From: Candidatus Hydrogenedentota bacterium
GTDB taxonomy: Bacteria > Hydrogenedentota > Hydrogenedentia > Hydrogenedentales > JAGMZX01
Length of the DNA stretch: 64,000 bases
Assembly: GCA_029556545.1 (NCBI GenBank)
Contig: JAKQEQ010000193.1
Span: 15,262-79,261 of the forward strand
Direction: 5' to 3'
The notes beneath the pieces are model-generated. The model was not told where the DNA came from. It saw nothing but the letters and a program-made list of their open reading frames with translations, and did not search any database. The translations under genes were made by a program, and so were the position numbers. How positions within the stretch are numbered: position 1 is the first letter of the stretch; each line of letters opens with the position of its first letter. This document shows positions 3,897 through 28,496 of this stretch, piece after piece.

Positions 3897-4202
3897 TTAC
3901 CGGTATGCGTCGCGGCGATCATCCAGCGTCAATAGAAAGACTATGCGCTTTGTGCGGTCCACTGTGAAGAATATCCGAAAGTCGCCAATGCGATATCGCC
4001 ATGTATCGGGCGCGTAACCCTTAAGCTTCTTGATATTGGGACCAAGGAACGGATTCTCGCGCAATTGCGGATAGACATACCGTCGCAGCTTACGTTGCAG
4101 GAACTCGGAGGCGGCTTTAGAAAGTCTTTCGAGGCGTCGCCGGAATTCGTCCGTCTCGAAGATTCTGAATTCAAACGAAGCGCCCCTGTCCCGTTTCGGC
4201 AT
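3897..4202 (-). CDS. RelE/ParE-family type II toxin
   Basis: 101 aa with the C-terminal motif WRYRIGDFRIFFTVDRTKRIVFLLTLDDRRDAY, typical of RelE/ParE (RIGDYRIIY-type). It overlaps the upstream antitoxin gene by 32 nt. Confidence 0.8.
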   Translation of the reverse strand: MPKRDRGASFEFRIFETDEFRRRLERLSKAASEFLQRKLRRYVYPQLRENPFLGPNIKKLKGYAPDTWRYRIGDFRIFFTVDRTKRIVFLLTLDDRRDAYR

Positions 4203-4410
4203 TCTTCATTCCCCGCGTTAGACTGCGATTCAACGCGACGTTGGCCCGGATTTCCTCCATTTCGAAATCGTCCGCGAACTGCGCCGTTTCGACGTAGCGC
4301 AGGGCCGCCGTCTCGATGAAATTTGAGAGCGGCCGGTTTTCCCGCTCCGCCAAGACACGAAACCGCCGATAAGTCTCGTCCGGAAGTCGTAAAGTGACTA
4401 TCTTCGACAT
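4171..4410 (-). CDS. ribbon-helix-helix (CopG/ParD-like) antitoxin
   Basis: Internal ATG at 4410 of track ORF 4171..4593. The N-terminus MSKIVTLRLPDETYRRFRVLAERENRPLSNFIE matches RHH antitoxins. It sits directly upstream of and overlapping the RelE/ParE gene. The longer start at 4593 would lie upstream of the predicted promoter. Confidence 0.7.
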   Translation of the reverse strand: MSKIVTLRLPDETYRRFRVLAERENRPLSNFIETAALRYVETAQFADDFEMEEIRANVALNRSLTRGMKNAETGQGRFV

Positions 4411-4549
4411 AGCACGTAGCGCCTCCCTTGCGCGCTGCAGCTTACATCTCCGCGCTTCGCGCGTGAAGCCGCCCGCAAACGTCGAGAACCTTCGTGGGGC
4501 GCGATAAAGCGGCCCCCACGCGAGCGCCTGAAAGCTAGTACCCGCAACT

Positions 4550-12037: not shown

Positions 12038-13198
12038 TTGGGATTGTTACTCATGATTGCGAATAGCACTTCCGACGCGACGGACGTCGCGCGAACCCGC
12101 ATTGGCGTCATCGGCGTGGGGCAGATCGGCAAGATACACTTGGACAATTATCGCGCCGCGCCGAATGTCGAGGTGGTTGCTATCGCGGATACGGACGAGG
12201 CGGAGGCGCGCCGTGTGGCCGCGGAGTACGACATCGAGAGCCTATACCGCGACGCGCGGGAACTTCTGGCGCGGGACGACATCGAGGCCGTGGACGTCTG
12301 CCTGCACAACAACCTGCACCGCCCGTACACGGTGGCCGCGCTCGAAGCGGGCAAGCACGTCTACTGCGAAAAGCCGATGGCGGGCGCGTACTGCGACGCC
12401 GCGGCGATGCTCGACGCCGCGCGCGCCTGCGGGAAGATGCTCTCGATTCAGCTCTCGACCTTGTTCTCGCGCGAGACGAGGGCCGCGAAGCAGCTTATCG
12501 ACAACGGCAACCTCGGCAGGCTCTATCACGCGCGCTCGACGGGCTTTCGCCGTCGCGGGCGGCCCTTTGTCGACGGCTACGGCACGGCGCGCTTCGTACA
12601 GCGGGAAATCGCGGCGGGCGGCGCGCTCTTCGACATGGGCGTCTACCACGTCGCGAACATGCTGTACCTTCTCGGGAACCCCGAGGTGCGCTCCATCACC
12701 GGCAAGACGTACCAGGAGACCGAGATGGACGCGACGCGACGCGCATCGAGCGGCTACGACGTCGAGGAACTCGGCGTCGGCTTCGTGCGCCTCGCCGACA
12801 ACGTCACGCTCGATATCATCGAGTCGTGGGCCATCCACATGAACGCCTTCGAGGGCTCGTTTGTCGTCGGCGGCGACGGCGGCGTGCGTCTTGATCCCTT
12901 CGGTTTCTTCCAGAACATCGGCGACCTCGAACTGGATTGCCGCGCGGACCTCGATAGCTTCGACTACCGCCTTCACAACGTACACGACATGGGCGACGCC
13001 TACGACAGCCCGCAGCACCATTGGGCCGCCGCGTTACAGGGACGTGCGCCGCTTCTGCCCACGGCGGAAATCGCGCTCAACACCATGCTCATTTCCGAGG
13101 GCATCTACCTGTCGGACCGGCTCGGGCGTGAAGTCACGGCGGACGAGGTCCGGGCCGCGTCGCAGTCAACCGCGATCATGCAAAGCCTCATCGGATAA
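12038..13198 (+). CDS. Gfo/Idh/MocA-family NAD(P)-dependent oxidoreductase
   Basis: Rossmann N-terminus [18 protein letters not shown]...VVAIADTD and the EKP motif (HVYCEKPMA) are typical of Gfo/Idh/MocA. Confidence 0.85.
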
Positions 13199-15914
13199 TC
13201 GTGCGGGGTGTGGTCTCGGGCGCGGTGGGGCCGCCGCGTTCCTTGATCTTCTCGCGGCGGGCCGCCACGTCCTCAGACGCCGCGCCGCGCCGCTCGGCCT
13301 CGCCAAGATATCTGGCCGCTCCCGCGCCATCGCCGTGCTCAATCGCGATATCGCAGAGTTCCAGCCACGGCGCGGAATCATCGGGCCGGACATTCACGGC
13401 CTTGTCGAAGTAGTGCGCGGCGCGCTCCGCTCGGCCGACCTCGAGGGCAATCTTGCCGAGCGCGAGTGAACGCCGGACCTCGTCGCCGAGGTCGGCGTTG
13501 TGCCCGAGATACGACTCCGCGGTCTCCCACGACCCGCCGGCCATGCAGCGCGTGGCGAGTTTCGACCACGCCTCGGGCGTCGCGACAGCGTCGCCGCCGT
13601 GATCGCGCACAAACGCATCCGCCGCGCCCGTGCACGCGCGGAGATATCCCAGCGACAGCCACGTTGTCTCGTTTGCCGGCTCCTTCTCGATTGCCGTCTC
13701 GAGGAGATATCCCGCCTGCGTCCATTCGCCGCGCAGCAGGGCGGCCTCGCCCATGACCCGCATCCCTTCGATGATCCGGTCCGGCGTGACGAGCAACGCC
13801 TGCGCGCGCGCCTCGATCGCGGCGGCTTGACCCGCAAGCCGCGCGAATCGTTCCGCCACGGCCTTTAGCGCGCCCTCAGGAGCCCCCCTCGCCGCCTCGC
13901 TTAACACGCCCGCGCAGGACACGACATCGCCAATACCCGCCAGCACGGCGGCATATCGCGCAAGAGCCTCGACGGGCAGTTCGCCGAGGGCGCGCGCGCG
14001 GGCGAAGTATTGCGCCGCCAGACGCAGCGGCTCGATGTCGTGGCCGGTGCGGCCCCACGCTTCAAAGAGCAGCGCAAAATGCGCCGCGACGTCCGGCCCG
14101 TCGGGGTGGGCGCGCAGGAGCCGCACGAACTCCTCGCCGATTTGCGGCGACCACCCGGCGCGGGCGCGCGCTTCGTCGAACGCCGCAAGCACCGCCCCAC
14201 GCGTCCGCGCCTCGTGCAACAGCGCGATCTGCAGGGCGGCGGCCTGATCGAAGGGATTGCGGCGCAACACGTCTCTGAGTTCCGTCATGGCCTCGGCATC
14301 CCGGCCCAGTTGCCGCAACGTCATGCCCAGCTTGCCGCGATAGGAGACGTCGCCGGGCTTGCGATGCAGCGCCTCTCGCCAGCAGCGATCGGCGGCCATC
14401 CAGTGCGCGCGCGCTTCGGGCGCGTTTGCGGCGCTTCGGGCCGACTCGACGGCAAGCGTCCCGAGGTACTCCCAAGGCCGCGCGTCATCCGGCACGGCAT
14501 CCGCGGCGGGGGGCCACAAGCGTACCGGCTCGGACCAGAGTACAAGCCGCTGGTAGGTCAGGACTCCCGATGCAAGCACGCAGCCCGCCACGATCAGACC
14601 GAGCGCGGTCCGCGCGAGGCGCGGCGTGACCACCGAGAACAGCCACGGCGCCAGCAGGGCGAAGCCCGCCATGGCAAAGTAGGCGCGTCGCGCCGTCAGC
14701 AGGTCATCGGAGGGAAGAAGACAGACGGCGGCGCACGCCGCGGCCAACGGCCACAGCAACGCAACACCGCCGATGCCGCGCACAGCGATCAGAAGCACGG
14801 CGGCGACCATCAGGCACGCGAGGATGCCCAAGCCGAGAGACGAAATCGCCATGCCGGCCACGCTCGGCGCGATAGGATTCAACGCAACAGGCCAGAACAC
14901 GTGCGGCAGCAGGCGTTCGAGATACACGGTCAACGCGCCGAAGACCGCGCCGGGCGCCCGCAGGTACTCCGTGCCCCCATCGCCGCCGGACGCAACGCGC
15001 ACCAGCATCAGCGCGATGAAGAACAGTCCGTACAGACCATGCACGGCGCCGCATGCGCGCAGACGCGGCCAACCGCCGCGCACCCAGTCCGCCCAGAACA
15101 AGATCACCGGCAGCACAATCGCCGTGGGCTCCGCCGCGAACGCCAGCGCGTAACAGGCAAGGGAACCGGCAAGCGACAACGCGGAAACCCGCGGTCCCGC
15201 CGGTGGCTCGGTCCCGCCTTCGCTGAAGCTACGGTGGGCACGCAGGAGACCGGCCACAACGGCGTCGCCCGCCTCTCCCTCTGGGAGAGGGGTAGGGTGA
15301 GGGCTCGCGCCTCTTTCGTCCGTGGCGCGGAAGAACAGCAGCGCCGACAACAACGCGAGACACAACGCGAGCGGGCCGGGTCGGCCGAGGGCGTTGGCGA
15401 CGTTCTCCGTCGCGAGCGGATGCACCACGAAGACCAGGCCCGCCGCCATCGCGACCGGCTCCGCGAACCCGGCCCCCAGCAGCCGTCGCGCAAACAGATA
15501 CAGCGACACGCCGCTTAGCAGGTGCAGCGCCAGACTGACCGCGCGAAATCCCCACGCCATGCCGGGCGTGATCCGCCAATTCAGCGCGTGGGAAAACAGC
15601 GCCAGCGGCCCCGTCGCGTCGGTTTCGCGCGCGTCGAGGAACGTCGTCACGCGATGCAGCGCCGGATTGTCCCGGAGATGCGCCGTCTCCGCCCCTTGAA
15701 ACGGCACGCGGAACACGCCCAAGTACGCCACCAACCCGACGATCACGATAAGGAACGCGCTGACCCAGACCTGGGCCGTGTCAATGCCGCGATTGAAATC
15801 CACCACGCCTTTCTCGAGGCGGCGGTCCAACGCGGCATTCCCGGTCGATTCCTCGACCGGCGTATCCGGGTGTTGCGGTTCGTCTGTGGCCACGGCGCGA
15901 GTCCCCGACTTCAT
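13188..15914 (-). CDS. polytopic membrane protein with C-terminal TPR repeats (PMT/DUF2723-like glycosyltransferase-type membrane domain plus TPR)
   Basis: 908 aa. The N-terminal about 450 aa has many TM helices, and the C-terminal half has TPR-like helical repeats. Its 3' end overlaps the oxidoreductase gene convergently. Confidence 0.75.
15243..15275. repeat. third copy (partial, in-frame inside the TPR membrane protein gene) of the roughly 30-bp repeat that flanks the abrB/vapC cassette
   Basis: caggagaccggccacaacgg matches the core AGGAGACCGGCCACAAC of the repeats at 26742-26771 and 27200-27232. It encodes VVAGLL next to a Pro-rich island [10 protein letters not shown]. Confidence 0.5.
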
Positions 15915-16222: not shown

Positions 16223-18553
16223 ATGTGGGCCGCGGTTGGTTGGAAACGACGGCTGATACCGTGGGCGGTGTGTGTCGTTTGTCTTTCGTCGCTCACGGCG
16301 GCGGGCGCGGACACCGCCGCGCCGTGTGTGGCGAATGCATGGCTGCGGGTCTGCTTGGACGCCGCGGACGGGCGGCTCGTGAGTTTCACGGACCTCGCGG
16401 TCGACCACGAGTTTCTGGGCACGGCCGAGAACGCGGACCTCTGGTGGATGGACCTGCTGCCGCCGGGCACGCCGCCGATTACGCCCCGCGACGCGAAGCG
16501 GTTCGCGTGGCGCGCGGGCGCCGCGGCGAACACCCTCGAACTCGAATGGGACGCCTTCGCGGTCGCCGCCGCGCCGGAACTCCGCGTTCGCGCGTCGGTG
16601 CGCGTCGAGCAGGACGCGCCCGCGAGTCATTGGCGCATCGCCGTCGAAGGTGCGGACGCGCTGCAAGTGGCGGCGATTCGGTTTCCCCGCATTGCCGCCG
16701 TCGCGCCTCAGCAGGACGAAACGCTCACCGTGCCCATCTGGATGGGCCAGCGGACGGAACGCGCGCGCGAAATGCTGTCGAGCGGCGGGTCGGCGCACAG
16801 ACTCGAATGGGAGTATCCCGGTATCCTGTCCCTGCAATGCTTGGCCCTGTACGGTCCCGACGGGCCGGGACTCTACCTCGCCTGCGACGACACCCGGCGG
16901 GCGCGCAAGACCTTCGCCGTTTTCGGCGATGGACAGGGCGGCCTCGGCATGGAGATTTCGCACGCGCCGGGAGCGGGCGGCGCGTCGGCGGAATACGCGC
17001 TGCCCTACGCGGTCGAGCTGGCAATTATCGAAGGCGACTGGTTCGCGGCGGCGGCGCGGTATCGCGACGGCGAGCCGAGCGCCTTGTTCGGGCAGGCGTC
17101 GAGGCGCGTGAACGGCGCGGTTCCCGAATGGCTGTTGCGGACCGGCGCATGGGTCTGGAACCGCGGGCGCTCCGAGAACGTGCTCGATCCCGCGCGGGTC
17201 CTGCTAGAACGTCTCGGTATGCCGGTGAGCGTGTTCTGGCATTGGTGGCACGGCTGCCCCTACGACGTGGGCTTCCCCGAGTATCTCCCGCCGCGCGAGG
17301 GCGCGGAACCGTTCCGCGCGGCGGTCGCCGCGATGCACGACGCGGACCTGCGCGCCATCGTGTACATGAACCAGCGGCTTTGGGGCATGGCCACGGCAAG
17401 CTGGCGCGACAAGGCGGCCGAGCGCTTCGCCGTAAAAGGGCCGGACGGCGCGGTCCATCCCGAGGTGTACAACACGTTCACGCGGTCGCCGTGCGCGTCC
17501 ATGTGCATGGGCACCGCGTTCTGGCGGGACAAATACGCGGGCATCGCGGAAGAAGTCCTGTGCGATTACCGCCTCGACGGCATCTACATGGACCAGGCGT
17601 GTTCGAGCCTCGCGTGTTTCGACCCGGCGCACGGCCACCTGCTCGGCGGAGGCACGTACTGGATGGAGGGATTCCAGGCGCTCGTGGGAGATATCCGTCG
17701 CCGCGCGGCGTCATGCGGCAATAGCAGTGACCCTCACCCCAATCCGCTCCCGCGGGGATCGGGCATCGTGCTCGCGGGCGAGGGCTGCGGCGAGGCGTGG
17801 CTGCCGCACCTCGATCTGATGCTCAGCCTGCAAGTGAGCATGGAACGCTACGCAGCGCCGGGCGACTGGGAACCGATCCCCTTCTTCCACGCCGTCTACC
17901 ACGACAAAGCCGTGCTCTACGGCAACTATTCCTCGCTCACGACGCCTCCCTACGATGAGTTGTGGCCCGCCGAGACCGCGCCGAAGGAACCCCTGGCGCT
18001 GCTCGACCGCAAGTATGCGCGGCAGTTTTTCCTCGAACAGGCCCGCGCGTTCGTATGGGGCCAGCAGCCCACGATAGCGAACTTCCGGCCCGGCCACTTC
18101 GATGATCGGGCCGAGGAAATGGCGTACTTCGCGCGCCTGGCCCAGGCGCGCATGAGGGCCTTGCCCTGGCTGCGCGACGGCGTCATGCTGCGACCGCCGC
18201 GACTCGACGTTCCCGAAATCGTCTTCGATGCGTCGCGCCTCTCGATCTACGCCGGTCAAGGCGAGGCGGTGAAGGAATTCTCGATGCGTCATCCCGCGGC
18301 CCTTGCCGCGGCGTGGCAAGCCCCGCGCGACGGAAGCGTGGCGGTCGCCCTCGCGAGCATTTCCGCCGACCCGCTCGACGTCGAACTGCGCTTGCACGGC
18401 CCCGCCTATCCCCTCCCGCGCGCGGGCACGGTTCTCCGCGTCGACGAAACGGGCCAGCAGCCCGTGGGGCGGTTCGAAGACGGTGCGGCGGTGATCACGG
18501 CGCGACTGAAAGCACTGGACGTGTGTGTGTACGTTCTTGTCGGCGACTCATGA
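16223..18553 (+). CDS. secreted hypothetical protein (776 aa), possibly carbohydrate-active
   Basis: Internal ATG 16223 gives a signal peptide MWAAVGWKRRLIPWAVCVVCLSSLTAAGA. The long frame is open and aromatic-rich, with no recognisable motif. Confidence 0.65.
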   Translation: MWAAVGWKRRLIPWAVCVVCLSSLTAAGADTAAPCVANAWLRVCLDAADGRLVSFTDLAVDHEFLGTAENADLWWMDLLPPGTPPITPRDAKRFAWRAGAAANTLELEWDAFAVAAAPELRVRASVRVEQDAPASHWRIAVEGADALQVAAIRFPRIAAVAPQQDETLTVPIWMGQRTERAREMLSSGGSAHRLEWEYPGILSLQCLALYGPDGPGLYLACDDTRRARKTFAVFGDGQGGLGMEISHAPGAGGASAEYALPYAVELAIIEGDWFAAAARYRDGEPSALFGQASRRVNGAVPEWLLRTGAWVWNRGRSENVLDPARVLLERLGMPVSVFWHWWHGCPYDVGFPEYLPPREGAEPFRAAVAAMHDADLRAIVYMNQRLWGMATASWRDKAAERFAVKGPDGAVHPEVYNTFTRSPCASMCMGTAFWRDKYAGIAEEVLCDYRLDGIYMDQACSSLACFDPAHGHLLGGGTYWMEGFQALVGDIRRRAASCGNSSDPHPNPLPRGSGIVLAGEGCGEAWLPHLDLMLSLQVSMERYAAPGDWEPIPFFHAVYHDKAVLYGNYSSLTTPPYDELWPAETAPKEPLALLDRKYARQFFLEQARAFVWGQQPTIANFRPGHFDDRAEEMAYFARLAQARMRALPWLRDGVMLRPPRLDVPEIVFDASRLSIYAGQGEAVKEFSMRHPAALAAAWQAPRDGSVAVALASISADPLDVELRLHGPAYPLPRAGTVLRVDETGQQPVGRFEDGAAVITARLKALDVCVYVLVGDS

Positions 18554-20080
18554 CGCATCCGACCGGTCGCCGCGCGAGTCCTCATCGAGAAACGACGTGT
18601 CCGCCGGCGGTTCGCCACCGCGACGACCGAATCGCGCGAACACGAGCCCGAATGCGCCGACGATGAAGAGCGCCATGCCGAGCAGTTTCGCTGGGCTGCC
18701 CAACGTGCGTTCCGCGCGCAACACGACGGCATCGGCGGCGGCGAGGTCCGGCCGAATCGCAAATATCCAGTCGCCCTGGCGACGCCGCTCGCCGGGGCCG
18801 ATCGTGAACGTCTTCTCGTCTCCGCCGTCAATCGGGACCGCGCGCAAGGTGCACCGCACCTCGGGCGGCGTCGGCTCGCGGCGGTACGCCAGCATGACAT
18901 CGCCGTGCCGCATGTTTTCGCCTTGTCGAAGCGCGAGCGTCTCGCCCGCACTTTCGAGCAGGGCCTCGAAGACCGGTTGCTCCGTCTCCGGGACAGGCAG
19001 CGCCGCGCCCATGAGTTGGTCCAACCGGATTTCGTAAGGGAATTCGTCCGGACGCCACGCCTCCCGATCCTTGATCTCGCCGGTGAAGCGTTTCGCGGCG
19101 GCAGGCTGCGCCTTCGGCAATTCGTAAGCGGCGACAAGCGCGTGACCCTCGCGCCACGCATCCGCCGCGACCACGTGTTGCCACGCGGCGGGCCACTCGA
19201 AACGGAGGCGGCTTTCCGGGTCACGCGCGTTGGCGTCGAGCGTTTCCCTCTGTTGCTTGCCGTCCGCGGCGAATTCCACCGTAATACGCGGCGGTTCCGA
19301 CTTAAATTCAACGAGCGTCGCCTCCGTCCCGTCGCGCAGGACGTGGCCGGTCCCCGGAACAAACGAAGTCGACCAGTGCACGATGGTTGTGGCCGGTCGC
19401 CCGACCGCGCCGTTATCCACCACGCCCCAACGTCCCTCGAACAGGGATTCCGGCGATGCGGCGTGCGCCGCCCGCGCGGCCTCCTCGTCCGTGTGCCAGC
19501 GCAACCGAAGACCGATGCCCGGCGCCACGCGCAGCCAGTTCTCGGCATCCACGAAGAGATGCTCCGTCCAAGGCTCGCCTCGTCGCCGCAACGAGAACGC
19601 CGCCATCGGCTGTCCCTTCGGGTGTCGGACCAATCCACTCCAGCGCCGCAGCGTGACGCGGTACGCCTGGTCGTCAAAGGTGATCGTGGCGCCGTCATGG
19701 AGCGGGATTTCGCGCCGGTCCTCCGCCGCCCGCACGCGCAACACGTCGCGCGGCGGATACTCCCGCAGCACGTCCGCCTCTTCGAGGCGCAGACGGAACG
19801 GAAGGGTCATCGCGTCGTAGGCAAGGTCCGGGTCGAGCAGTCGTCGCGCGATGGCCGGGTTGTCGAACGCGATCACGTCGAGGGGCGCGCGCCGCTGCAT
19901 GCCGACAAAGACCTGCCCGGCCCGACTAGGGCGCACCACGCTCTTCTCGGTGCGGCCCAAGGCCAGCGGCAGTTCGCCGGAGAAGGCGGCCAACCGCTGG
20001 TAGACCAGGCCGCCCAAAGCGAAGACCGCGCCAAGATAAAAGAGCGCGAAAAACAGTCGCGGCGACGATGAGCGTTGCAT
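18548..20080 (-). CDS. hypothetical membrane protein with N- and C-terminal TM anchors and a large extracytoplasmic domain
   Basis: Internal ATG at 20080 (MQRSSSPRLFFALFYLGAVFALGGLVY) gives an N-terminal TM helix. There is a C-terminal TM LLGMALFIVGAFGLVFARF. The upstream 232 codons of track ORF 18548..20776 are rejected as an arginine-rich GC artefact. Confidence 0.55.
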   Translation of the reverse strand: MQRSSSPRLFFALFYLGAVFALGGLVYQRLAAFSGELPLALGRTEKSVVRPSRAGQVFVGMQRRAPLDVIAFDNPAIARRLLDPDLAYDAMTLPFRLRLEEADVLREYPPRDVLRVRAAEDRREIPLHDGATITFDDQAYRVTLRRWSGLVRHPKGQPMAAFSLRRRGEPWTEHLFVDAENWLRVAPGIGLRLRWHTDEEAARAAHAASPESLFEGRWGVVDNGAVGRPATTIVHWSTSFVPGTGHVLRDGTEATLVEFKSEPPRITVEFAADGKQQRETLDANARDPESRLRFEWPAAWQHVVAADAWREGHALVAAYELPKAQPAAAKRFTGEIKDREAWRPDEFPYEIRLDQLMGAALPVPETEQPVFEALLESAGETLALRQGENMRHGDVMLAYRREPTPPEVRCTLRAVPIDGGDEKTFTIGPGERRRQGDWIFAIRPDLAAADAVVLRAERTLGSPAKLLGMALFIVGAFGLVFARFGRRGGEPPADTSFLDEDSRGDRSDAS

Positions 20081-22379: not shown

Positions 22380-22985
22380 ATGTCATTTCCGCCGCGATCT
22401 TGTCAACCGTAATGATTATAGCATCGCTTAGATTAGGGTGCTGTTCCGCAATTACCGCTGGATTGCCGGATTCTTGGCGGAGTCGCGGTTGAATCGTGGC
22501 CTATGTTGCGGATAGCGCGGACGACGTGCCTCATGTCGCGGATACCGCGGACGACTTGTTAGCGCGCTTTAGCGCGCTCCTCTTTGCACCCTGCTTTAGC
22601 AGGGGTGTAGGGGAATTGCCTTTCCCGCCGATAGGGCGCTTCAGCGTCGCTTTCCGGATGGCTTCAGCGCTGAAGCACTTGAAAAGCCGCGCTGAAGCGG
22701 GCTTTGGCGCAGGAGAGCCCTCGTCTCACCCCGCATGAATGCGGGTGCAAAGAGGAGCCCGCCGAGGCGCGCTAATCAGCCCCTGAGACGCCGCAGTCGG
22801 TAATCGCGGAACCGCACCCTTAGATTATCGGCGACGGCGGCAAGGCAATCTCGAATCTGTGTCTTATTCTTAACGCGGCGGCGCATCCAGCGAAGCATGA
22901 CGAGAGAGCATTCGTGGTCGGCTAAGCCGCCGCACATTACGTCTCCAGGCGCATAGCGCATACTTCTTCCTCGTTTGTACGAATT
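22380..22985. other. non-coding island of lower GC, rich in short GC-stem hairpins and short direct repeats
   Basis: No credible ORF is present. Hairpins: gcgcgc-ttta-gcgcgc, ccctgc-ttta-gcaggg, gcttcagcgctgaagc (perfect palindrome), cccgcat-ga-atgcggg. Direct repeats: gcggata[g/c]cgcggacgac x2 and cgatcttgtca x2. Confidence 0.5.
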
Positions 22986-22987
22986 GG

Positions 22988-23073
22988 CCTGGATTCCCGC
23001 TTTCGCGGGAATGACGCCGGGGGCGAATTTGGCCCTCTTTTCCGTCATTCCCGCGAAAGCGGGAATCCAGAAA
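22988..23073. repeat. perfect 28-bp inverted repeat with a 30-bp spacer; each arm contains the nested palindrome ATTCCCGC-N-GCGGGAAT
   Basis: Left arm ctggattcccgctttcgcgggaatgacg (22988-23015) equals the reverse complement of cgtcattcccgcgaaagcgggaatccag (23046-23073). It sits about 80 bp downstream of the stop of the minus-strand gene 23154..23966. Confidence 0.8.
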
Positions 23074-25290: not shown

Positions 25291-26625
25291 ATGAAGACCA
25301 GCCGGCGTTCCTTCCTCAAGGAGTTGTCCATCCTCTCAACCGCTCCGTTCATTCTCCCGTCCCGCGTCTGGAGCGCTGAGACCAAGCCGAACGACCGTGT
25401 TGTCATGGGATTTATCGGTATGGGCAAGCAAAGCAGGGGACTCCTCGAGGCCTTCCTGCACCGCCGAAACTGCCAGGTCGTAGCCGTCTGCGACGTTGAC
25501 ACGACCCGCCGGACAGCCGCGCGGGACCGAGTCGATAAGTTCTATACGGACAGGCGGAAGACCGGCGCCCCGGAATGCAAAGCATACAACGATTTCCGCG
25601 AACTCATCGCGCGAGACGATATTAACGCCGTGTGCATCGCCACCCCGGACCATTGGCACGCCATACCCACCATCGCGGCCCTGCGCACGGGCAAGGACGT
25701 CTATTGCGAGAAGCCCTTGACCCACAACATCCACGAATCCATCGCCGTCATGGATGCGGTCAAAGTGAACAACCGCGTCCTGCAGAACGGCTCCATGCAA
25801 CGCTCCATGGAGGAATTCCGAGTCGCCTGCGAACTGGTCCGGAACGGCGCTATCGGGAAGATAGACCGCGTGGAATGCAGTTTCGGGCCCCCGGGAATCC
25901 CCTGCGACTTGCCGGAAGAGCCGTTAGAGCCCGGACTCGACTGGGATATGTGGGTCGGGCCCGCGCCGATGCGCCCCTACAACTCGGTATTGAGCCCCCG
26001 CGGCATGCACGACCACTTCCCGGACTGGCGCGCGTACAAGGAATTCGGCGGCGGCGCTGTGTGCGACTGGGGCGCCCATCACCTCGATATCGCGCAATGG
26101 GGCCTGGGAACCGACGACAGCGGCCCGGTCGAGATTCATCCGCCGAGCGACCCGCGGGCGAAGGAGGGCGCCGTGCTGCACTATGACAACGGCGTGCGCG
26201 TGATCCACCGGCAGGGGTTTGGCGTCCACTTCTTCGGCAACGACGGCGAAATCAAGGTAAACCGCGGCCAGTTCGAGTTCTGGCGCGACGGCAAGAAGAT
26301 CGCCGGCTTCGCCAACCGAGAGGACGGCGGCTCCCTCGAATCCACCATTCTCCGCGTCAAGAAGGACTTCCTGGAAAATGCCGAGATTCGACTCTACGAG
26401 AGCCGCGATCACATTTGGAACTTCATGGACTGCGTACGATCGCGCGCCAAGCCGATCACCGACGAAGAAATCGGCGGCCGCAGCGCCATATGTTGTCACC
26501 TGCTGAATCAGGCGTACTACAACCACGAAGTCATCAAGTGGAATCCGAAGCAAATGTGTTTCGCGCACGACAGCGGAAAACCCGAATGGCTCACCCGCGA
26601 CTACCGCGCCCCCTGGAACGTCTAG
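25291..26625 (+). CDS. Gfo/Idh/MocA-family oxidoreductase with twin-arginine (Tat) signal peptide
   Basis: Internal ATG 25291 is preceded by the RBS aaggag. MKTSRRSFLKELSILSTAPF is a Tat motif. GFIGMGKQ is the Rossmann motif and YCEKPLTHN the EKP motif. Confidence 0.85.
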   Translation: MKTSRRSFLKELSILSTAPFILPSRVWSAETKPNDRVVMGFIGMGKQSRGLLEAFLHRRNCQVVAVCDVDTTRRTAARDRVDKFYTDRRKTGAPECKAYNDFRELIARDDINAVCIATPDHWHAIPTIAALRTGKDVYCEKPLTHNIHESIAVMDAVKVNNRVLQNGSMQRSMEEFRVACELVRNGAIGKIDRVECSFGPPGIPCDLPEEPLEPGLDWDMWVGPAPMRPYNSVLSPRGMHDHFPDWRAYKEFGGGAVCDWGAHHLDIAQWGLGTDDSGPVEIHPPSDPRAKEGAVLHYDNGVRVIHRQGFGVHFFGNDGEIKVNRGQFEFWRDGKKIAGFANREDGGSLESTILRVKKDFLENAEIRLYESRDHIWNFMDCVRSRAKPITDEEIGGRSAICCHLLNQAYYNHEVIKWNPKQMCFAHDSGKPEWLTRDYRAPWNV

Positions 26626-26642
26626 TTGCTCCCGCGCCCGGT

Positions 26643-26675
26643 CCCGTCCCCTCTCCCCGAGCGAGAGGGGACGGG
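26643..26675 (+). terminator. GC-rich hairpin (13-bp perfect stem, 7-nt loop), 18 nt after the oxidoreductase stop
   Basis: cccgtcccctctc-cccgagc-gagaggggacggg. There is no U-tract, which is common for intrinsic terminators in high-GC genomes. Confidence 0.4.
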
Positions 26676-26741
26676 TAAGGGTTGGGGGCGGGCCGAAACC
26701 TTCGCCACGCGGCGCAGGCGCCTCCACCGCGTGTCGCCCCG

Positions 26742-26771
26742 CTGGCGCGGTCAAGAGACCGGCCACAATGG
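26742..26771. repeat. left copy (inverted orientation) of the roughly 30-bp repeat ATTGTGGCCGGTCTCYTGACCGCGCCASCG
   Basis: Plus strand gctggcgcggtcaagagaccggccacaatgg. Its reverse complement matches 27200-27232 with 2 mismatches over about 30 bp. Confidence 0.6.
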
Positions 26772-26880
26772 AGAACGCCGGAACCAACGGGCGTCGATAT
26801 ATTCGTGTCGCGACCGCGACTTGACTCGACGGAGGGTTAGCCGGTACAGTCTTATTGGTAAGATTCGAAGGAGCTATGCC

Positions 26881-27147
26881 ATGAGTCAGACCGTCGCAAC
26901 GACAAAGATGAGTTCCAGGGGACAGGTGGTCATCCCGGAGACTATTCGCGACCGCCTGCGGCTTGGTCCCGGCGTGCAATTCGCGGTGTTCGCACAGGAG
27001 GACGTAGTCATGCTGAAGGTAATCAATCCGCCATCGGCGGACGAATTCGCGCGCCTGAAACGTGAGCTTCAACGGCAGGCGCGCCAAGGCGGCCGCAAAC
27101 GGTCAGACATCCCCAAGACCATTTCCAAAGTGCGTGGCCGCCGGTGA
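26881..27147 (+). CDS. AbrB/MazE/SpoVT-fold antitoxin (VapB-like)
   Basis: 88 aa from ATG 26881 (RBS ggag). SSRGQVVIPETIRDRLRLGPGVQFAV is the swapped-hairpin AbrB-fold motif. The stop overlaps the GTG of a PIN-domain ORF (GTGA). Confidence 0.7.
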   Translation: MSQTVATTKMSSRGQVVIPETIRDRLRLGPGVQFAVFAQEDVVMLKVINPPSADEFARLKRELQRQARQGGRKRSDIPKTISKVRGRR

Positions 27148-27221
27148 GACTCGTAGTCGATACGAACGTGCTGATCTCGGGTGCATTCTACCCGGGACCA
27201 TTGTTGTGGCCGGTCTCCTGA
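27144..27221 (+). pseudogene. truncated PIN-domain (VapC) toxin gene; only 25 codons remain
   Basis: GTG 27144 overlaps the antitoxin stop. VRLVVDTNVLISGAFYPGPLLWPVS* has the canonical PIN start (VVDTNVLIS). The frame ends inside the right copy of the 30-bp repeat. Confidence 0.5.
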
Positions 27222-27232
27222 CCGCGCCACCG
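27200..27232. repeat. right copy of the roughly 30-bp repeat; together with 26742-26771 it forms an inverted pair bracketing the abrB-vapC remnant
   Basis: ttgttgtggccggtctcctgaccgcgccaccg. It supplies the stop codon of the truncated vapC. Confidence 0.6.
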
Positions 27233-27356
27233 CCGCGACCGAAGGTCTCCAAGACCCTTACGACAGAACCCCATGAAGTCCCGCAATAACCCTGTGGTCT
27301 CTGTAATCCGTAATCCGCAATCCGCATTCCATACGCTGCAAGATAACGCCAAGCGC

Positions 27357-28133
27357 CTACCCAAGGTGCCCGACGGCGTTCCGGAAGACTTGCAGCCCCG
27401 CGCCTTCCTCGGGGAATTCTTCGCGGGTCCAGCGGGGATGTTGCGTGCGCGCGACGAACGCCTCGGGGTGCGGCATAAGCCCGAGCACGCGCCCCGACGG
27501 ATCGCAGATGCCCGCGATATCATCCACCGCGCCGTTCGGATTCGCCGGGTACGCGCCGCGGGCGGGCGCGCCGTCGGGTCCCGCGTAGCGGAACACGACC
27601 TGGCCGTTGGCGCGGAGTCTTTCGAGTACGGCGTCGTCGCGGGGGATGAACTTGCCCTCGCCGTGGCGAATCGGCAGTTCGAGGCCGGTGATGCCCTGGC
27701 TCCAGACGCAGCGGGTGCCCGGGTCCGCCGTGAGGCGCACCCAGCGGTCCTCGAACCGCCCCGAGTCGTTGTGCGTGACCGTGACCTCCTGTCGGAACGC
27801 GCCGTTGAACAGCGGCAGGATGCCCATCTTCACCATGACCTGGAACCCGTTGCAGATGCCGATGGCGAGCTTGCCCGCCGCGAGGAACTCCGCGATCGGC
27901 TCGCCCAGCTTGAAGCGGAGGCGGTTCGCGAGAATCTTTCCCGAGGCGACGTCGTCGCCGAAGGAGAACCCGCCGGGGACCGCGAGGATATGGAATTCGT
28001 GCAGCCGCGCCGGGTCCGCCACAAGATCATTCAGGTGGACAAACGCCGTCTCCGCGCCCGCAAGATGGAAAGCGTGTGCGGTCTCGTGCTCGCAGTTAAT
28101 CCCGAAACCGGTCACTATCAGTGCGCGTACCAC
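27357..28133 (-). CDS. purQ: phosphoribosylformylglycinamidine synthase glutaminase subunit PurQ
   Basis: ALIVTGFGINCEHETAHAF..., catalytic GICNGFQVMVKMG and PHPE motifs. I chose GTG 28133; the alternative ATG 28250 adds 39 non-conserved residues. Confidence 0.8.
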   Translation of the reverse strand: MVRALIVTGFGINCEHETAHAFHLAGAETAFVHLNDLVADPARLHEFHILAVPGGFSFGDDVASGKILANRLRFKLGEPIAEFLAAGKLAIGICNGFQVMVKMGILPLFNGAFRQEVTVTHNDSGRFEDRWVRLTADPGTRCVWSQGITGLELPIRHGEGKFIPRDDAVLERLRANGQVVFRYAGPDGAPARGAYPANPNGAVDDIAGICDPSGRVLGLMPHPEAFVARTQHPRWTREEFPEEGAGLQVFRNAVGHLG

Positions 28134-28283: not shown

Positions 28284-28496
28284 TTAGGCATTTACTACAG
28301 CCTCAAACGTGGTCATCATGGCCGTGGAGGCCGCCGGCATGGGAAATTCCATGAGGTAGGCTTCAGTCGCTTCCTTTAGGTTGGCGATGGCCTCCTCGAC
28401 CGTATAACCTTGGCTAACCGTGCCCACCTCCGGGCAATCGGCGACGTAGAGATCATCTTCCTTGTGTAATACGGCTGTGAATGTCTTGTGCGTCAT
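28284..28496 (-). CDS. HicB-like (UPF0150) antitoxin-family protein, orphan, located between purSL and purQ
   Basis: 70 aa. MTHKTFTAVLHKEDDLYVADCPEVGTVSQGYTVEEAIANLKEATEAYL matches the small HicB/UPF0150 fold signature (YVAxxPElxgc...G.T.EEAl.NlkEAiELyl). No hicA-like ORF is nearby. Confidence 0.65.
   Translation of the reverse strand: MTHKTFTAVLHKEDDLYVADCPEVGTVSQGYTVEEAIANLKEATEAYLMEFPMPAASTAMMTTFEAVVNA

What the first reader, a model, noticed from the sequence alone, without database searches (positions are those of the whole stretch)
26742..27232. Inverted pair of a 30-bp repeat brackets an AbrB-type antitoxin gene and truncates its PIN toxin partner
gctggcgcggtcaagagaccggccacaatgg (26742-26771) and its inverted copy ttgttgtggccggtctcctgaccgcgccaccg (27200-27232) match in about 28 of 30 positions. 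Between them lie:
- a promoter-less-looking abrB/mazE-fold antitoxin gene (26881-27147)
- the first 25 codons of a vapC PIN gene. Its GTG overlaps the antitoxin stop (GTGA), and its frame is terminated by a TGA contributed by the right repeat.

This looks like a small repeat element that has inactivated a vapBC toxin, leaving an orphan antitoxin. Alternatively the pair could be a MITE-like structure that carried the cassette. The unit is immediately downstream of a terminator hairpin (26643-26675).
Basis: seen in the sequence. Interest (0 to 1): 0.7.

Follow-up and report, generated by a model that had tools for sequence, protein, structure and literature searches.

The report
REP repeats flank decayed toxin-antitoxin locus
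Two copies of a widespread hairpin repeat, of the kind moved by a dedicated REP-associated transposase, flank the remnant of a toxin-antitoxin gene pair, and the toxin gene is cut off exactly at the edge of one repeat, so this is ordinary genome decay with an unusually clean breakpoint.

Summary
A 36-nt inverted repeat (26733-26768 / 27204-27239, 89% complementary) flanks an intact 88-aa AbrB/MazE-type antitoxin gene and a 25-codon ORF. Only the first 19 codons of that ORF are PIN-derived.

The arms are not a private pair. They are two single copies of a dispersed hairpin repeat: a bulged ~10-bp stem with a GGTC-RGGA-GACC core, an unpaired GTTG/CAAC "foot", and usually a second small hairpin GAGACC-loop-GGTC. 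At least four copies lie in this 64-kb Hydrogenedentota window, and more than 130 in Planctomycetota and other MAGs.

In three of those loci the same repeats flank a gene that passes NCBIfam's cutoff for REP-associated tyrosine transposase. The arms are therefore REPs.

Antitoxin homologues at 81-91% identity all precede an intact 134-166-aa PIN_3 toxin. Similarity to them stops at 27201-27204, within 2 nt of the right REP's foot, and codons 20-134 are absent from the window. A sigma-70-like promoter and RBS upstream of the antitoxin are conserved.

The two arms have the opposite polarity to the family's compact doublets and REPtrons, and intact cassettes elsewhere lack the repeats. The pair is therefore not a vehicle for the cassette.

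Verdict: REP-associated toxin truncation leaving an orphan antitoxin. It is a new member of known kinds, of modest interest.

The parts
26643..26690 (.). Hairpin-2: 13-bp perfect stem (26643-26655 / 26663-26675) followed by a GGGTAAGGG-type tail. It belongs to a second dispersed repeat and is not a canonical intrinsic terminator.
   Evidence: Inverted repeat I4. No T-tract and not called by the terminator scan. A similar CTCTCCC-loop-GGGAGAG + GGGTrAGGG element lies at 15273-15300.
26696..26769 (+). Left REP unit (copy A). It has a degenerate first hairpin (GAAACCTTCGCC, about 26696-26707), a spacer about 27 nt longer than usual, the main bulged hairpin TGGC-G-CGGTC-AAGA-GACCG-GCCA (26743-26765) and a degenerate foot CAAT (26766-26769). 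It holds the left arm of the 36-nt inverted repeat (26733-26768).
   Evidence: Comparison with the family consensus from 134 copies.
26807..26820 (.). Palindrome GTCGC-GACC-GCGAC just upstream of the -35 box. It is a candidate operator for the AbrB-type antitoxin (inference). Similarity to intact cassettes begins here (26806-26821).
   Evidence: Sequence. BLAST boundaries. Alignment A1.
26821..26850 (+). Sigma-70-like promoter TTGACT-18 nt-TACAGT. The -35 box is conserved in intact cassettes. Their -10 box is TATAAT/CATAAT, so the window copy carries two substitutions.
   Evidence: 1 site found against 0.1 expected. Alignment A1.
26881..27147 (+). vapB-like antitoxin gene. It is intact at 88 aa, of the AbrB/MazE/SpoVT type, with RBS AAGGAG at 26868-26873.
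   Evidence: Weak Pfam MazE/PrlF hits (E about 1e-3, below the gathering score). 465 homologues, nearly all 88-89 aa, many carrying PF04014 and named AbrB/MazE/SpoVT by NCBI.
27144..27201 (+). Stub of the PIN_3 toxin gene (codons 1-19, VRLVVDTNVLISGAFYPGP). Its GTG overlaps the antitoxin stop.
   Evidence: 89-95% identical to residues 1-19 of intact toxins in L130, L131 and L133. DNA similarity ends at 27199-27204. No other PIN sequence occurs in the window.
27202..27250 (-). Right REP unit (copy B), a canonical full unit. Read on the minus strand it is GAGACC-TTC-GGTC (27237-27249), spacer GCGGCG, GTGGC-G-CGGTC-AGGA-GACCG-GCCAC, then AAC. On the plus strand the GTTG foot is at 27203-27206 and the main hairpin at 27207-27229. 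It supplies codons 20-25 and the TGA (27219-27221) of the stub ORF, and it holds the right arm of the inverted repeat (27204-27239).
   Evidence: The outer edge at about 27250 comes from where L005 diverges. Its main hairpin differs only in the loop from the REP flanking the RAYT gene in L039.
27305..27330 (.). Short 7-nt tandem repeat (AATCCGC x 3.7) in the spacer between the right REP and the purQ stop codon (27357).
19386..19413 (-). REP copy C (ACGGCGCGGTCGGGCGACCGGCCACAAC). It lies in frame inside a coding-like ORF (18548-20080, minus strand), where it reads GAVGRPATT.
   Evidence: Gene call in L001.
15183..15302 (.). In-frame insertion of about 120 nt in the PMT_2/TPR membrane-protein gene. 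It consists of REP copy D (15205-15260, plus strand, the same stem around a 33-nt extra loop) and a hairpin-2 copy (15273-15300). All orthologues lack it.
   Evidence: Alignment A3.

Best explanation
The two arms are independent single copies of a REP (repetitive extragenic palindrome) family. This family is mobilised, or was once mobilised, by a REP-associated tyrosine transposase (RAYT, an HUH/Y1 enzyme).

Each unit has three parts:
- a bulged ~10-bp stem with a conserved GGTC-RGGA-GACC core;
- an unpaired tetranucleotide foot (5'-GTTG, written CAAC on the other strand);
- usually a second small hairpin, GAGACC-loop-GGTC, a few bases away.

Between the two REPs lies the remnant of a horizontally acquired vapBC-type cassette (AbrB/SpoVT antitoxin plus PIN_3 toxin). 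The cassette sat between the convergent GFO-family oxidoreductase gene and purQ. Its promoter, RBS and antitoxin gene are intact. The toxin gene ends after codon 19, within 0-2 nt of the foot of the right REP, and the remaining ~115 codons are gone.

The most likely history is a REP-associated rearrangement, in one of two forms:
- a REP inserted into vapC and the distal part was then lost by recombination with another REP; or
- a deletion was anchored at the REP's foot, where the transposase cleaves.

This inactivated the toxin. The antitoxin then survived as an orphan. It is probably still transcribed from its own, somewhat weakened, promoter, with the REP hairpins at the 3' end of its transcript.

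Shown here: the anatomy, REP family membership, the RAYT association in other genomes, the toxin truncation and its exact boundary, and that these repeats arise by insertion in this lineage.

Inferred: that the REP event caused the truncation, that the antitoxin is expressed, and any present-day role for it (neutralising related toxins, or none).
For: **REP identity**
- Each arm folds into the same bulged hairpin.
- In 56 sibling copies that my search pattern did not constrain, the outer stems co-vary. Examples are GTGGCAA/TTGCCAC, GTGTCGC/GCGACAC and GCAGCAC/GTGCTGC. Mean pairing is 5.45 of 6, against 4.12 +/- 0.13 for shuffled partners (maximum 4.50 in 200 shuffles). The core and the (C/G)AAC foot stay fixed.
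- Copies are depleted from ORFs: 41% fall in ORFs against 83% of random positions. They show no orientation bias relative to the upstream gene.
- Compact inverted doublets of 106-171 nt occur in about 14 loci, without target-site duplications.
- Three homologous ~181-aa genes (L021, L039, L050) are flanked on both sides by these units. The two that were scanned (L050, L039) score 92 and 101 bits against NCBIfam NF047646 'REP-associated tyrosine transposase' (cutoff 80, full length). The L050 protein best matches E. coli TnpA_REP 4ER8 in the PDB. The third, L021, is 85% identical to L050.

**Insertion in this lineage**
- A ~40-aa in-frame segment made of a REP plus hairpin-2 is absent from all orthologues of a window gene.

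**Truncation**
- Antitoxins 81-91% identical are each followed by an intact 134-166-aa PIN_3 gene with the same 4-nt overlap.
- The stub equals residues 1-19 of those toxins, and DNA similarity runs from 26806-26821 to 27199-27204.
- No further PIN sequence occurs in the window.

**Real, not an assembly artefact**
- Nine independent contigs from JGI, ENA and NCBI are 100% identical across the junctions.

**Promoter**
-.
Against: - No ancestral or empty-site allele was found. The nearest purQ relatives are at most 75% identical and share no synteny. The order of events, and whether the REP caused the deletion, are therefore inferred from the boundary coincidence alone.
- No RAYT gene lies in the 64-kb window, and the rest of the source genome could not be scanned.
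- The foot is GTTG, not the GTAG that defines the best-studied REP superfamily (PMC3733652, PMC8266576).
- Two of the four window copies are intragenic.
- The junction is ambiguous by about 3 nt, because CATyGT is shared between vapC and the REP edge.
- The left REP does not abut a recognisable cassette boundary. About 36 nt of unassigned sequence lies between them.
- Non-Planctomycete taxon labels on some loci may reflect MAG mis-binning. For example, a PSCyt2 gene sits on a contig labelled Deltaproteobacteria.
Confidence: 0.72

Rival explanations
1. The inverted pair is the two ends of a MITE-like or composite mobile element that carried the antitoxin cassette to this site.
For: - A real 36-nt inverted repeat brackets the cassette.
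- The cassette family is found in a different context in every relative, so it is mobile by some route.
- RAYT genes sit between inverted REPs, so genes between inverted REPs do occur.
Against: - Intact cassettes in ten other loci have no such repeats nearby.
- In doublets and REPtrons the feet point outward (5'-GTTG ... CAAC-3'). Here they point inward.
- The cargo would be a truncated toxin.
- All contigs carrying this antitoxin share the same left flank.
- No target-site duplication is present.
- The left arm lies about 36 nt from where cassette similarity begins.
Confidence: 0.05
2. The toxin was lost by an ordinary deletion unrelated to the repeat. The REP simply lies next to the breakpoint, or inserted there afterwards.
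For: - Toxin loss with antitoxin retention is a common way for TA modules to decay (established knowledge; orphan antitoxins are reviewed in PMC7354431).
- REPs accumulate in intergenic spacers anyway.
- No ancestral allele fixes the order of events.
Against: - The break falls within 0-2 nt of the REP's foot, out of about 400 possible positions in the gene.
- The foot side is where RAYTs act on REPs (PMC8266576).
- REP-plus-hairpin insertions have demonstrably occurred in this lineage.
- A second contig (L005) has another junction at the other edge of the same REP.
Confidence: 0.13
3. The inverted pair is a functional regulatory structure. For example, a long-range stem or cruciform might insulate or control antitoxin expression.
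For: - The arms are 89% complementary.
- REPs are known to affect mRNA stability and termination (established knowledge; summarised in PMC3733652).
- The right REP would sit at the 3' end of the vapB transcript.
Against: - The left arm lies upstream of the vapB promoter, so it is not in the transcript unless there is read-through from the GFO gene.
- Each arm folds stably on its own.
- The geometry is not recurrent. The family's pairs are mostly compact and of the opposite polarity.
- Intact cassettes lack any such arms.
Confidence: 0.05
4. Assembly artefact: the assembler jumped between two copies of the repeat, which created an apparent truncation.
For: - L005 shows an alternative junction at the same REP.
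- An NCBI contig appears to break at the REP cluster in another gene.
Against: - Nine contigs from different samples and pipelines are 100% identical through both REP edges. They include k141 MEGAHIT-style contigs and a 355-kb contig.
- The unit is only about 50 nt, shorter than such k-mers.
- No distal vapC sequence exists anywhere in the window.
Confidence: 0.03

Closest known systems
REP/BIME sequences with their RAYT (TnpA_REP) transposase, known as 'REPtrons', of E. coli, Pseudomonas, Stenotrophomonas and Marinomonas (PMC3333891, PMC8266576, PMC3733652)
   Same: - A 25-30-nt imperfect palindrome with a bulged stem and a conserved unpaired tetranucleotide foot.
- Many dispersed, mainly extragenic copies, occurring as singlets and inverted dimers.
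- A small Y1/HUH transposase gene flanked by the same repeats.
- No target-site duplication.
- Occasional in-frame copies inside genes.
   Different: - The foot is GTTG (sibling variants GTTC), not GTAG.
- The loop and inner stem (GGTC-RGGA-GACC) are the most conserved part, while the outer stem co-varies.
- Most units carry an extra small hairpin (GAGACC-loop-GGTC) 6-8 nt away.
- The hosts are Planctomycetota and Hydrogenedentota MAGs.
- The R. baltica REP families listed in PMC3733652 translate differently and are not this element.
REPINs (REP doublets forming hairpins; Bertels and Rainey, PMC3116915)
   Same: In other genomes the family forms compact inverted doublets of 106-171 nt with sharply defined ends. 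These look like the replicating unit.
   Different: The window holds only singlets. The two arms are 435 nt apart and have the opposite relative polarity, with the feet inward, so they are not a REPIN.
Type II toxin-antitoxin modules of the vapBC kind with an AbrB/SpoVT-type antitoxin and a PIN_3 (PF13470) toxin
   Same: - Gene order, the 4-nt GTGA start/stop overlap, an 88-aa antitoxin and an upstream promoter with a palindrome.
- Close homologues are complete modules.
   Different: Only 19 codons of the toxin remain here. Just the first acidic residue of the PIN fold is left, so no nuclease can be made. The module is an orphan antitoxin.
Palindromic elements inserted in frame into genes: Rickettsia RPEs and intragenic REPs of Opitutus terrae (PMC3733652)
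   Same: Copy D plus hairpin-2 adds about 40 residues in frame to a membrane protein without breaking the ORF. Copy C also lies in frame in an ORF.
   Different: At the locus under study the element does not extend a protein. It ends one, by supplying a stop codon after six foreign codons.

Membership tests
REP / REP-RAYT (REPtron) system | Short (about 20-40 nt) imperfect palindrome able to form a stem-loop | tested here: met
   Both arms fold into the same bulged hairpin. Outer-stem covariation in 56 unconstrained sibling copies gives 5.45 of 6 pairs, against 4.12 +/- 0.13 for shuffled partners.
REP / REP-RAYT (REPtron) system | Conserved unpaired tetranucleotide 'foot' at one end of the hairpin | tested here: met
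   (C/G)AAC follows the stem, giving 5'-GTTG/GTTC on the other strand. It is invariant or nearly so across canonical and sibling copies while the stems vary. In the window the right arm has GTTG and the left arm a degenerate ATTG.
GTAG-tagged REP superfamily (Di Nocera et al. 2013, PMC3733652) | The foot fits GTAG or its listed variants (GYAG, GYRG, GTRG, GTMG, GTGG) | tested here: not met
   The foot is GTTG or GTTC. The R. baltica GTAG-20/21 intragenic translations in the paper's supplement do not match this element.
REP / REP-RAYT (REPtron) system | Many dispersed copies per genome, mainly extragenic | tested here: inconclusive
   There are 4 copies in this 64-kb window. In other genomes there are 134 copies in 115 loci, often several per MAG, and only 41% fall in ORFs against 83% of random positions. 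The genome-wide count for the source organism could not be made, and 2 of the 4 window copies are intragenic.
REP / REP-RAYT (REPtron) system | Occurrence as inverted dimers (BIME/REPIN) | tested here: met
   About 14 loci have compact outward-facing doublets of 106-171 nt. The window pair itself does not have this geometry.
REP / REP-RAYT (REPtron) system | A cognate RAYT (Y1/HUH) gene flanked by the same REPs | tested here: met
   L021, L039 and L050 each carry the gene. The L050 and L039 proteins score 92 and 101 bits against NF047646 (cutoff 80). The L050 protein best matches PDB 4ER8. L021 is 85% identical to L050. REP clusters lie on both flanks. This was met in Planctomycetota MAGs only. 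No RAYT lies in the window and the rest of the source genome was not available.
REP / REP-RAYT (REPtron) system | The RAYT binds and cleaves the single-stranded REP | not testable with these tools
   This needs the in vitro cleavage and strand-transfer assay of PMC8266576.
Type II TA module (AbrB/SpoVT antitoxin + PIN_3 toxin, vapBC-like) | Antitoxin with an AbrB/MazE/SpoVT DNA-binding domain | tested here: met
   The window protein itself gives only weak Pfam hits (E about 1e-3, below the gathering score). It has 465 homologues, nearly all 88-89 aa, many with PF04014 on record and NCBI's AbrB/MazE/SpoVT name, including the identical protein.
Type II TA module (AbrB/SpoVT antitoxin + PIN_3 toxin, vapBC-like) | A complete PIN toxin gene immediately downstream | tested here: not met
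   Only residues 1-19 remain. Relatives have 134-166-aa PIN_3 genes.
MITE or composite transposon carrying the cassette | Terminal inverted repeats in element polarity, a target-site duplication, and the same unit at other loci | tested here: not met
   The polarity is opposite to the family's doublets and REPtrons. No duplication is present. There is no second locus with the block, and intact cassettes lack the repeats.
Intrinsic (Rho-independent) terminator, for the hairpin at 26643-26675 | A GC-rich stem followed by a T-tract | tested here: not met
   The stem is present, but there is no T-run and the scan did not call it. A similar hairpin recurs at 15273-15300.

The most novel reading that the evidence does not exclude
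This GTTG-footed, two-hairpin REP family is an active REPIN-RAYT system whose near-identical sequence is shared across several orders of Planctomycetota and reaches Hydrogenedentota. That would imply horizontal spread, in contrast to the largely vertical, lineage-specific inheritance described for REPIN-RAYT systems. Three features would then be natural footprints of RAYT-catalysed rearrangement in vivo: the vapC truncation at the foot, the alternative junction in L005, and the in-frame gene insertions. On this reading, REPs reshape genes and disarm toxins in the wild.
Probability: 0.2. Interest if true: 0.6.

Novelty: new member of a known kind. Interest (0 to 1): 0.35.

Why it matters
For the locus itself, the result is a tidy example of how a toxin-antitoxin module decays: the toxin is cut, and the antitoxin and its promoter are kept. 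The breakpoint can be tied to the edge of a mobile repeat. This is expected biology.

The wider by-product is more useful. It is a well-defined REP family with its own tyrosine transposase in Planctomycetota and Hydrogenedentota, phyla where such elements are barely described. The features are clear enough (GTTG foot, conserved loop, co-varying stem, accessory hairpin) to build a model and annotate it.

These repeats break assemblies, create spurious or extended ORFs (peptides such as ...GRPATT..., ...RWRGQETGHN...) and insert in frame into real genes. Recognising them would improve annotation of these MAG-dominated groups.

The family also offers RAYT biochemists a natural variant foot for testing the guide model of cleavage-site choice.

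Tried and rejected
- **Rfam** on 26000-28000 at E up to 10: only sub-threshold noise, and nothing on the arms.
- **Viral contigs and PLSDB plasmids:** no copy of the unit or of a doublet.
- **Literature search** for the sequence itself and for Planctomycetes REP/MITE papers: no description of this element. The R. baltica families in PMC3733652 are different.
- **Synteny route to an ancestral allele** (purQ scan of metagenome contigs): relatives are at most 75% identical, and none has GFO, the TA cassette or HicB next to purQ.
- **Resolving L005:**
  - Its alternative flank is not in the window.
  - The identical PPDK_N protein was not found by homology search.
- **Clustering of proteins encoded near the units:** it found only ordinary Planctomycete paralogue families. 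The RAYT was found only by a motif pre-screen.
- **Pfam on the RAYTs:** no hit. NCBIfam and the PDB did recognise them.
- **The idea that the arms are 3'-end elements oriented with their upstream genes:** rejected, because there is no orientation bias across 62 cases (34 opposite, 28 same).
- **Target-site duplications:** none, under several boundary definitions.
- **Homology search for orthologues of the PMT_2/TPR protein by word index:** it returned only a partial self-hit. The exhaustive library search was needed.
Full report
**1. The observation**

The region contains a 36-nt inverted repeat (26733-26768 / 27204-27239, 89% complementary, 435 nt between the arms). In a simple ungapped score it reaches 24. 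The mean in 300 Markov shuffles of the surrounding 2 kb is 11.1, and 1 of 300 reached 24. The maximum in 20 shuffles of the whole window is 17.

Between the arms lie an 88-codon ORF (26881-27147) and a 25-codon ORF (27144-27221). The short ORF's GTG overlaps the first ORF's TGA, and its own TGA lies inside the right arm.

**2. The arms are copies of a dispersed hairpin repeat**

The 24-nt core recurs at 19387-19410, and its 14-nt tail recurs at 15246-15259. Each arm folds on its own into a bulged hairpin, GTGGC-n-CGGTC / 4-nt loop / GACCG-GCCAC, followed by AAC. The loops differ between copies (AAGA, AGGA, GGGC). Copy D keeps the stem around a 33-nt extra loop.

Most are Planctomycetota MAGs. 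Several are labelled Hydrogenedentota, which NCBI also gives as the phylum of the source organism. A few carry other phylum labels.

The 134 copies give this consensus: GGAGACC-(TTC/TGC/...)-GGTC, 6-8 nt, GT-GGC-n-CGGTC-RGGA-GACCGGCCAC-AAC. Read on the minus strand, the window's right arm (27202-27250) fits it almost perfectly. The left arm has a degenerate first hairpin and a longer spacer.

**3. Structure is conserved, not only sequence**

Among 188 GGTCnGGAGACC cores in those loci, 57 lack the tail I had searched for. Their outer stems differ but stay complementary, for example GTGGCAA/TTGCCAC, GTGTCGC/GCGACAC, GCAGCAC/GTGCTGC, TGGCAT/ATGCCA and GTGCGG/CGCGCAC. Mean pairing is 5.45 of 6, against 4.12 +/- 0.13 when partners are shuffled (maximum 4.50 in 200 shuffles).

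The inner stem, the loop and an unpaired (C/G)AAC are constant. On the other strand that unpaired element is a 5'-GTTG/GTTC foot. A hairpin plus a conserved foot is the defining anatomy of REPs (PMC3733652, PMC8266576).

Further family properties:
- Copies avoid ORFs: 41% fall in ORFs against 83% of random positions, using a generous ORF model.
- They show no orientation bias relative to the upstream gene (34 opposite, 28 same).
- In about 14 loci they form compact doublets of 106-171 nt, 5'-GTTGTGGCC...GGCCACAAC-3', with sharp ends and no target-site duplication.

**4. The family has its own transposase**

Clustering of neighbouring ORFs found nothing recurrent except ordinary Planctomycete paralogue families. 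A motif pre-screen for HUH...Y..NP then picked out three homologous ~181-aa ORFs, in L021, L039 and L050.

- The L050 and L039 proteins score 92 and 101 bits over the full length of NCBIfam NF047646, 'REP-associated tyrosine transposase' (cutoff 80).
- The L050 protein's best PDB match is E. coli TnpA_REP, 4ER8.
- The L021 protein is 85% identical to L050.
- Pfam gave nothing.

Each gene is flanked on both sides by clusters of the units. In L039, a unit with foot GTTC lies 147 nt upstream of the gene, and a unit ending GGTGGCGCGGTCGGGAGACCGGCCACAAC lies 21-71 nt downstream, with the feet pointing outward. That downstream unit differs from the window's right arm only in the loop. This is the REPtron arrangement (PMC3333891).

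No RAYT lies in the window. L163, a purQ relative, has an unrelated RAYT flanked by its own, different hairpin repeats. It serves as a useful control.

**5. The repeats arise by insertion in this lineage**

The window ORF 13188-15914 (minus strand; PMT_2-like N-terminus plus TPR repeats) contains copy D and a second kind of hairpin. HMMER splits nearly all of its 150 best homologues into two stretches at residue 196-208. In an alignment with six orthologues, the best being 67% identical and 866 aa against 908 aa, a segment of about 40 residues is present only in the window protein. That segment corresponds to about 15183-15302. The local codon-position GC pattern is disturbed there.

**6. The toxin-antitoxin remnant**

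The 88-aa protein has 465 homologues, nearly all 88-89 aa. Many carry PF04014, and NCBI names them AbrB/MazE/SpoVT. On its own it gives only weak Pfam hits.

Homologues at 81-91% identity sit in five different genomic contexts. Each is followed by an intact PIN_3 gene of 134-166 aa with the same 4-nt overlap.

The window's short ORF equals residues 1-19 of these toxins: VRLVVDTNVLISGAFYPGP against, for example, VKLVVDTNVLISGAFYPGPSSRILDAC.... DNA similarity runs from 26806-26821 to 27199-27204. The junction reads GGGACCAT|TGTTGTGGCC in the window and GGGGCCAT|CATCTCGT in L133. It therefore lies 0-2 nt from the GTTG foot at 27203-27206.

No other part of the toxin gene occurs anywhere in the window. 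Upstream, the -35 box TTGACT, the RBS AAGGAG and a palindrome are conserved. The -10 box is TACAGT where intact cassettes have TATAAT or CATAAT. The cassette has a lower GC content than the window (0.588 against 0.647).

**7. Why the pair is not a vehicle for the cassette**

- Ten loci with intact cassettes show no unit-like motifs.
- In doublets and REPtrons the feet face outward. Here they face inward across vapB.
- About 36 nt of unassigned sequence separates the left REP from the start of cassette similarity.
- All ten contigs retrieved for this exact antitoxin share the same left flank.

The junctions are not an assembly artefact. Nine contigs from three sources are 100% identical across both REP edges.

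One short contig, L005, follows the window through the right REP and then continues into a different gene. That PPDK_N-like gene's similarity to its homologue stops about 37 nt from the REP. I could not decide whether this is a real recombinant or a mis-join.

**8. Mechanism**

I conclude that a REP-associated event truncated vapC. Either a REP inserted and REP-REP recombination followed, or a deletion was anchored at the foot.

RAYTs cleave single-stranded REPs at a dinucleotide 5' or 3' of the hairpin, and the foot acts as a guide (PMC8266576). By that model a GTTG foot would select CA, and CA lies 2 nt 5' of the foot at both window arms (CCATTG). This last step is my inference, not a result.

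The left REP, the hairpin at 26643-26675 (a second dispersed repeat with no T-tract) and a 7-nt tandem repeat make the GFO-purQ spacer a mosaic of repeats, much like a BIME cluster.

**9. Limits**

No ancestral allele was found. The nearest purQ relatives are at most 75% identical and share no synteny, and purL and purQ abut directly in them. The source genome outside the window could not be scanned for copy number or for a RAYT. Some non-Planctomycete labels may be binning errors.

**10. Verdict**

The finding combines two known kinds of thing: a REP-RAYT repeat family that is apparently undescribed (no match in the held literature), and an orphan antitoxin left by toxin loss. Interest is modest.

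Noticed in passing
window 15183-15302 (within ORF 13188-15914, minus strand): An insertion of about 120 nt, made of REP copy D plus a hairpin-2 copy, lies in frame in a PMT_2/TPR membrane-protein gene. It adds about 40 residues that all orthologues lack. An NCBI partial protein from the same organism starts just after it, which suggests that a contig broke at the repeats.
   Followed up: yes
window 19386-19413 (within ORF 18548-20080, minus strand): REP copy C lies in frame inside a coding-like ORF with no Pfam match, where it reads ...GAVGRPATT.... I did not test whether orthologues lack it.
   Followed up: partly
window 28284-28496 (minus strand): A 70-aa HicB/UPF0150-like antitoxin gene with no HicA partner is wedged between purL and purQ. 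In all purQ relatives examined, purL and purQ abut directly. Its GC content is about 0.56 against 0.647 for the window. It is a second orphan antitoxin within 1.5 kb of the first.
   Followed up: partly
window 26643-26690 and 15270-15303: A second dispersed hairpin family (CTCTCCC-loop-GGGAGAG followed by GGGTrAGGG) occurs twice in the window, each time beside a REP copy but on different sides of it. In L005, a degenerate copy also sits next to the REP.
   Followed up: partly
L005 (JGI 3300025861, contig Ga0209605_1040269), 530-620: This contig matches the window through vapB, the toxin stub and the right REP. It has one G-to-C difference inside the REP. It then joins a truncated PPDK_N-like gene instead of the purQ flank. 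It is either a REP-mediated recombinant in another population or a mis-join.
   Followed up: partly
L163 3800-4640 (JADHEF010001331.1): A different RAYT gene (3923-4459) lies immediately downstream of purQ in a relative. It is flanked by its own unrelated hairpin repeats, CGTCACCAAGTTGyACTTGGTGACG, and by 62-nt direct repeats.
   Followed up: partly
window 26845-26850: The -10 box of the orphan antitoxin's promoter is TACAGT, whereas intact cassettes have TATAAT, CATAAT or CATATT. This may mean that expression has weakened since the toxin was lost.
   Followed up: partly
window 27305-27330: A 7-nt tandem repeat (AATCCGC x 3.7) lies in the spacer between the right REP and the purQ stop codon.
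   Followed up: no
window 22989-23070 and 22559-22775: A perfect 28-nt inverted repeat (CTGGATTCCCGCTTTCGCGGGAATGACG, arms 26 nt apart) and a 49-nt imperfect inverted repeat lie nearby. They look like further families of palindromic repeats.
   Followed up: no
window 59500-63000: Several long direct repeats (124-nt, 56-nt and 38-nt families spaced 423-2500 nt apart) and GAAGGC-type short tandem repeats, probably from a protein with repeated domains.
   Followed up: no
L051 3534-4532 (contig labelled Deltaproteobacteria MAG): This contig encodes a PSCyt2/DUF1549 protein, a family I know as typical of Planctomycetes. Some of the non-Planctomycete labels among the REP-bearing loci may therefore be binning errors.
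   Followed up: no
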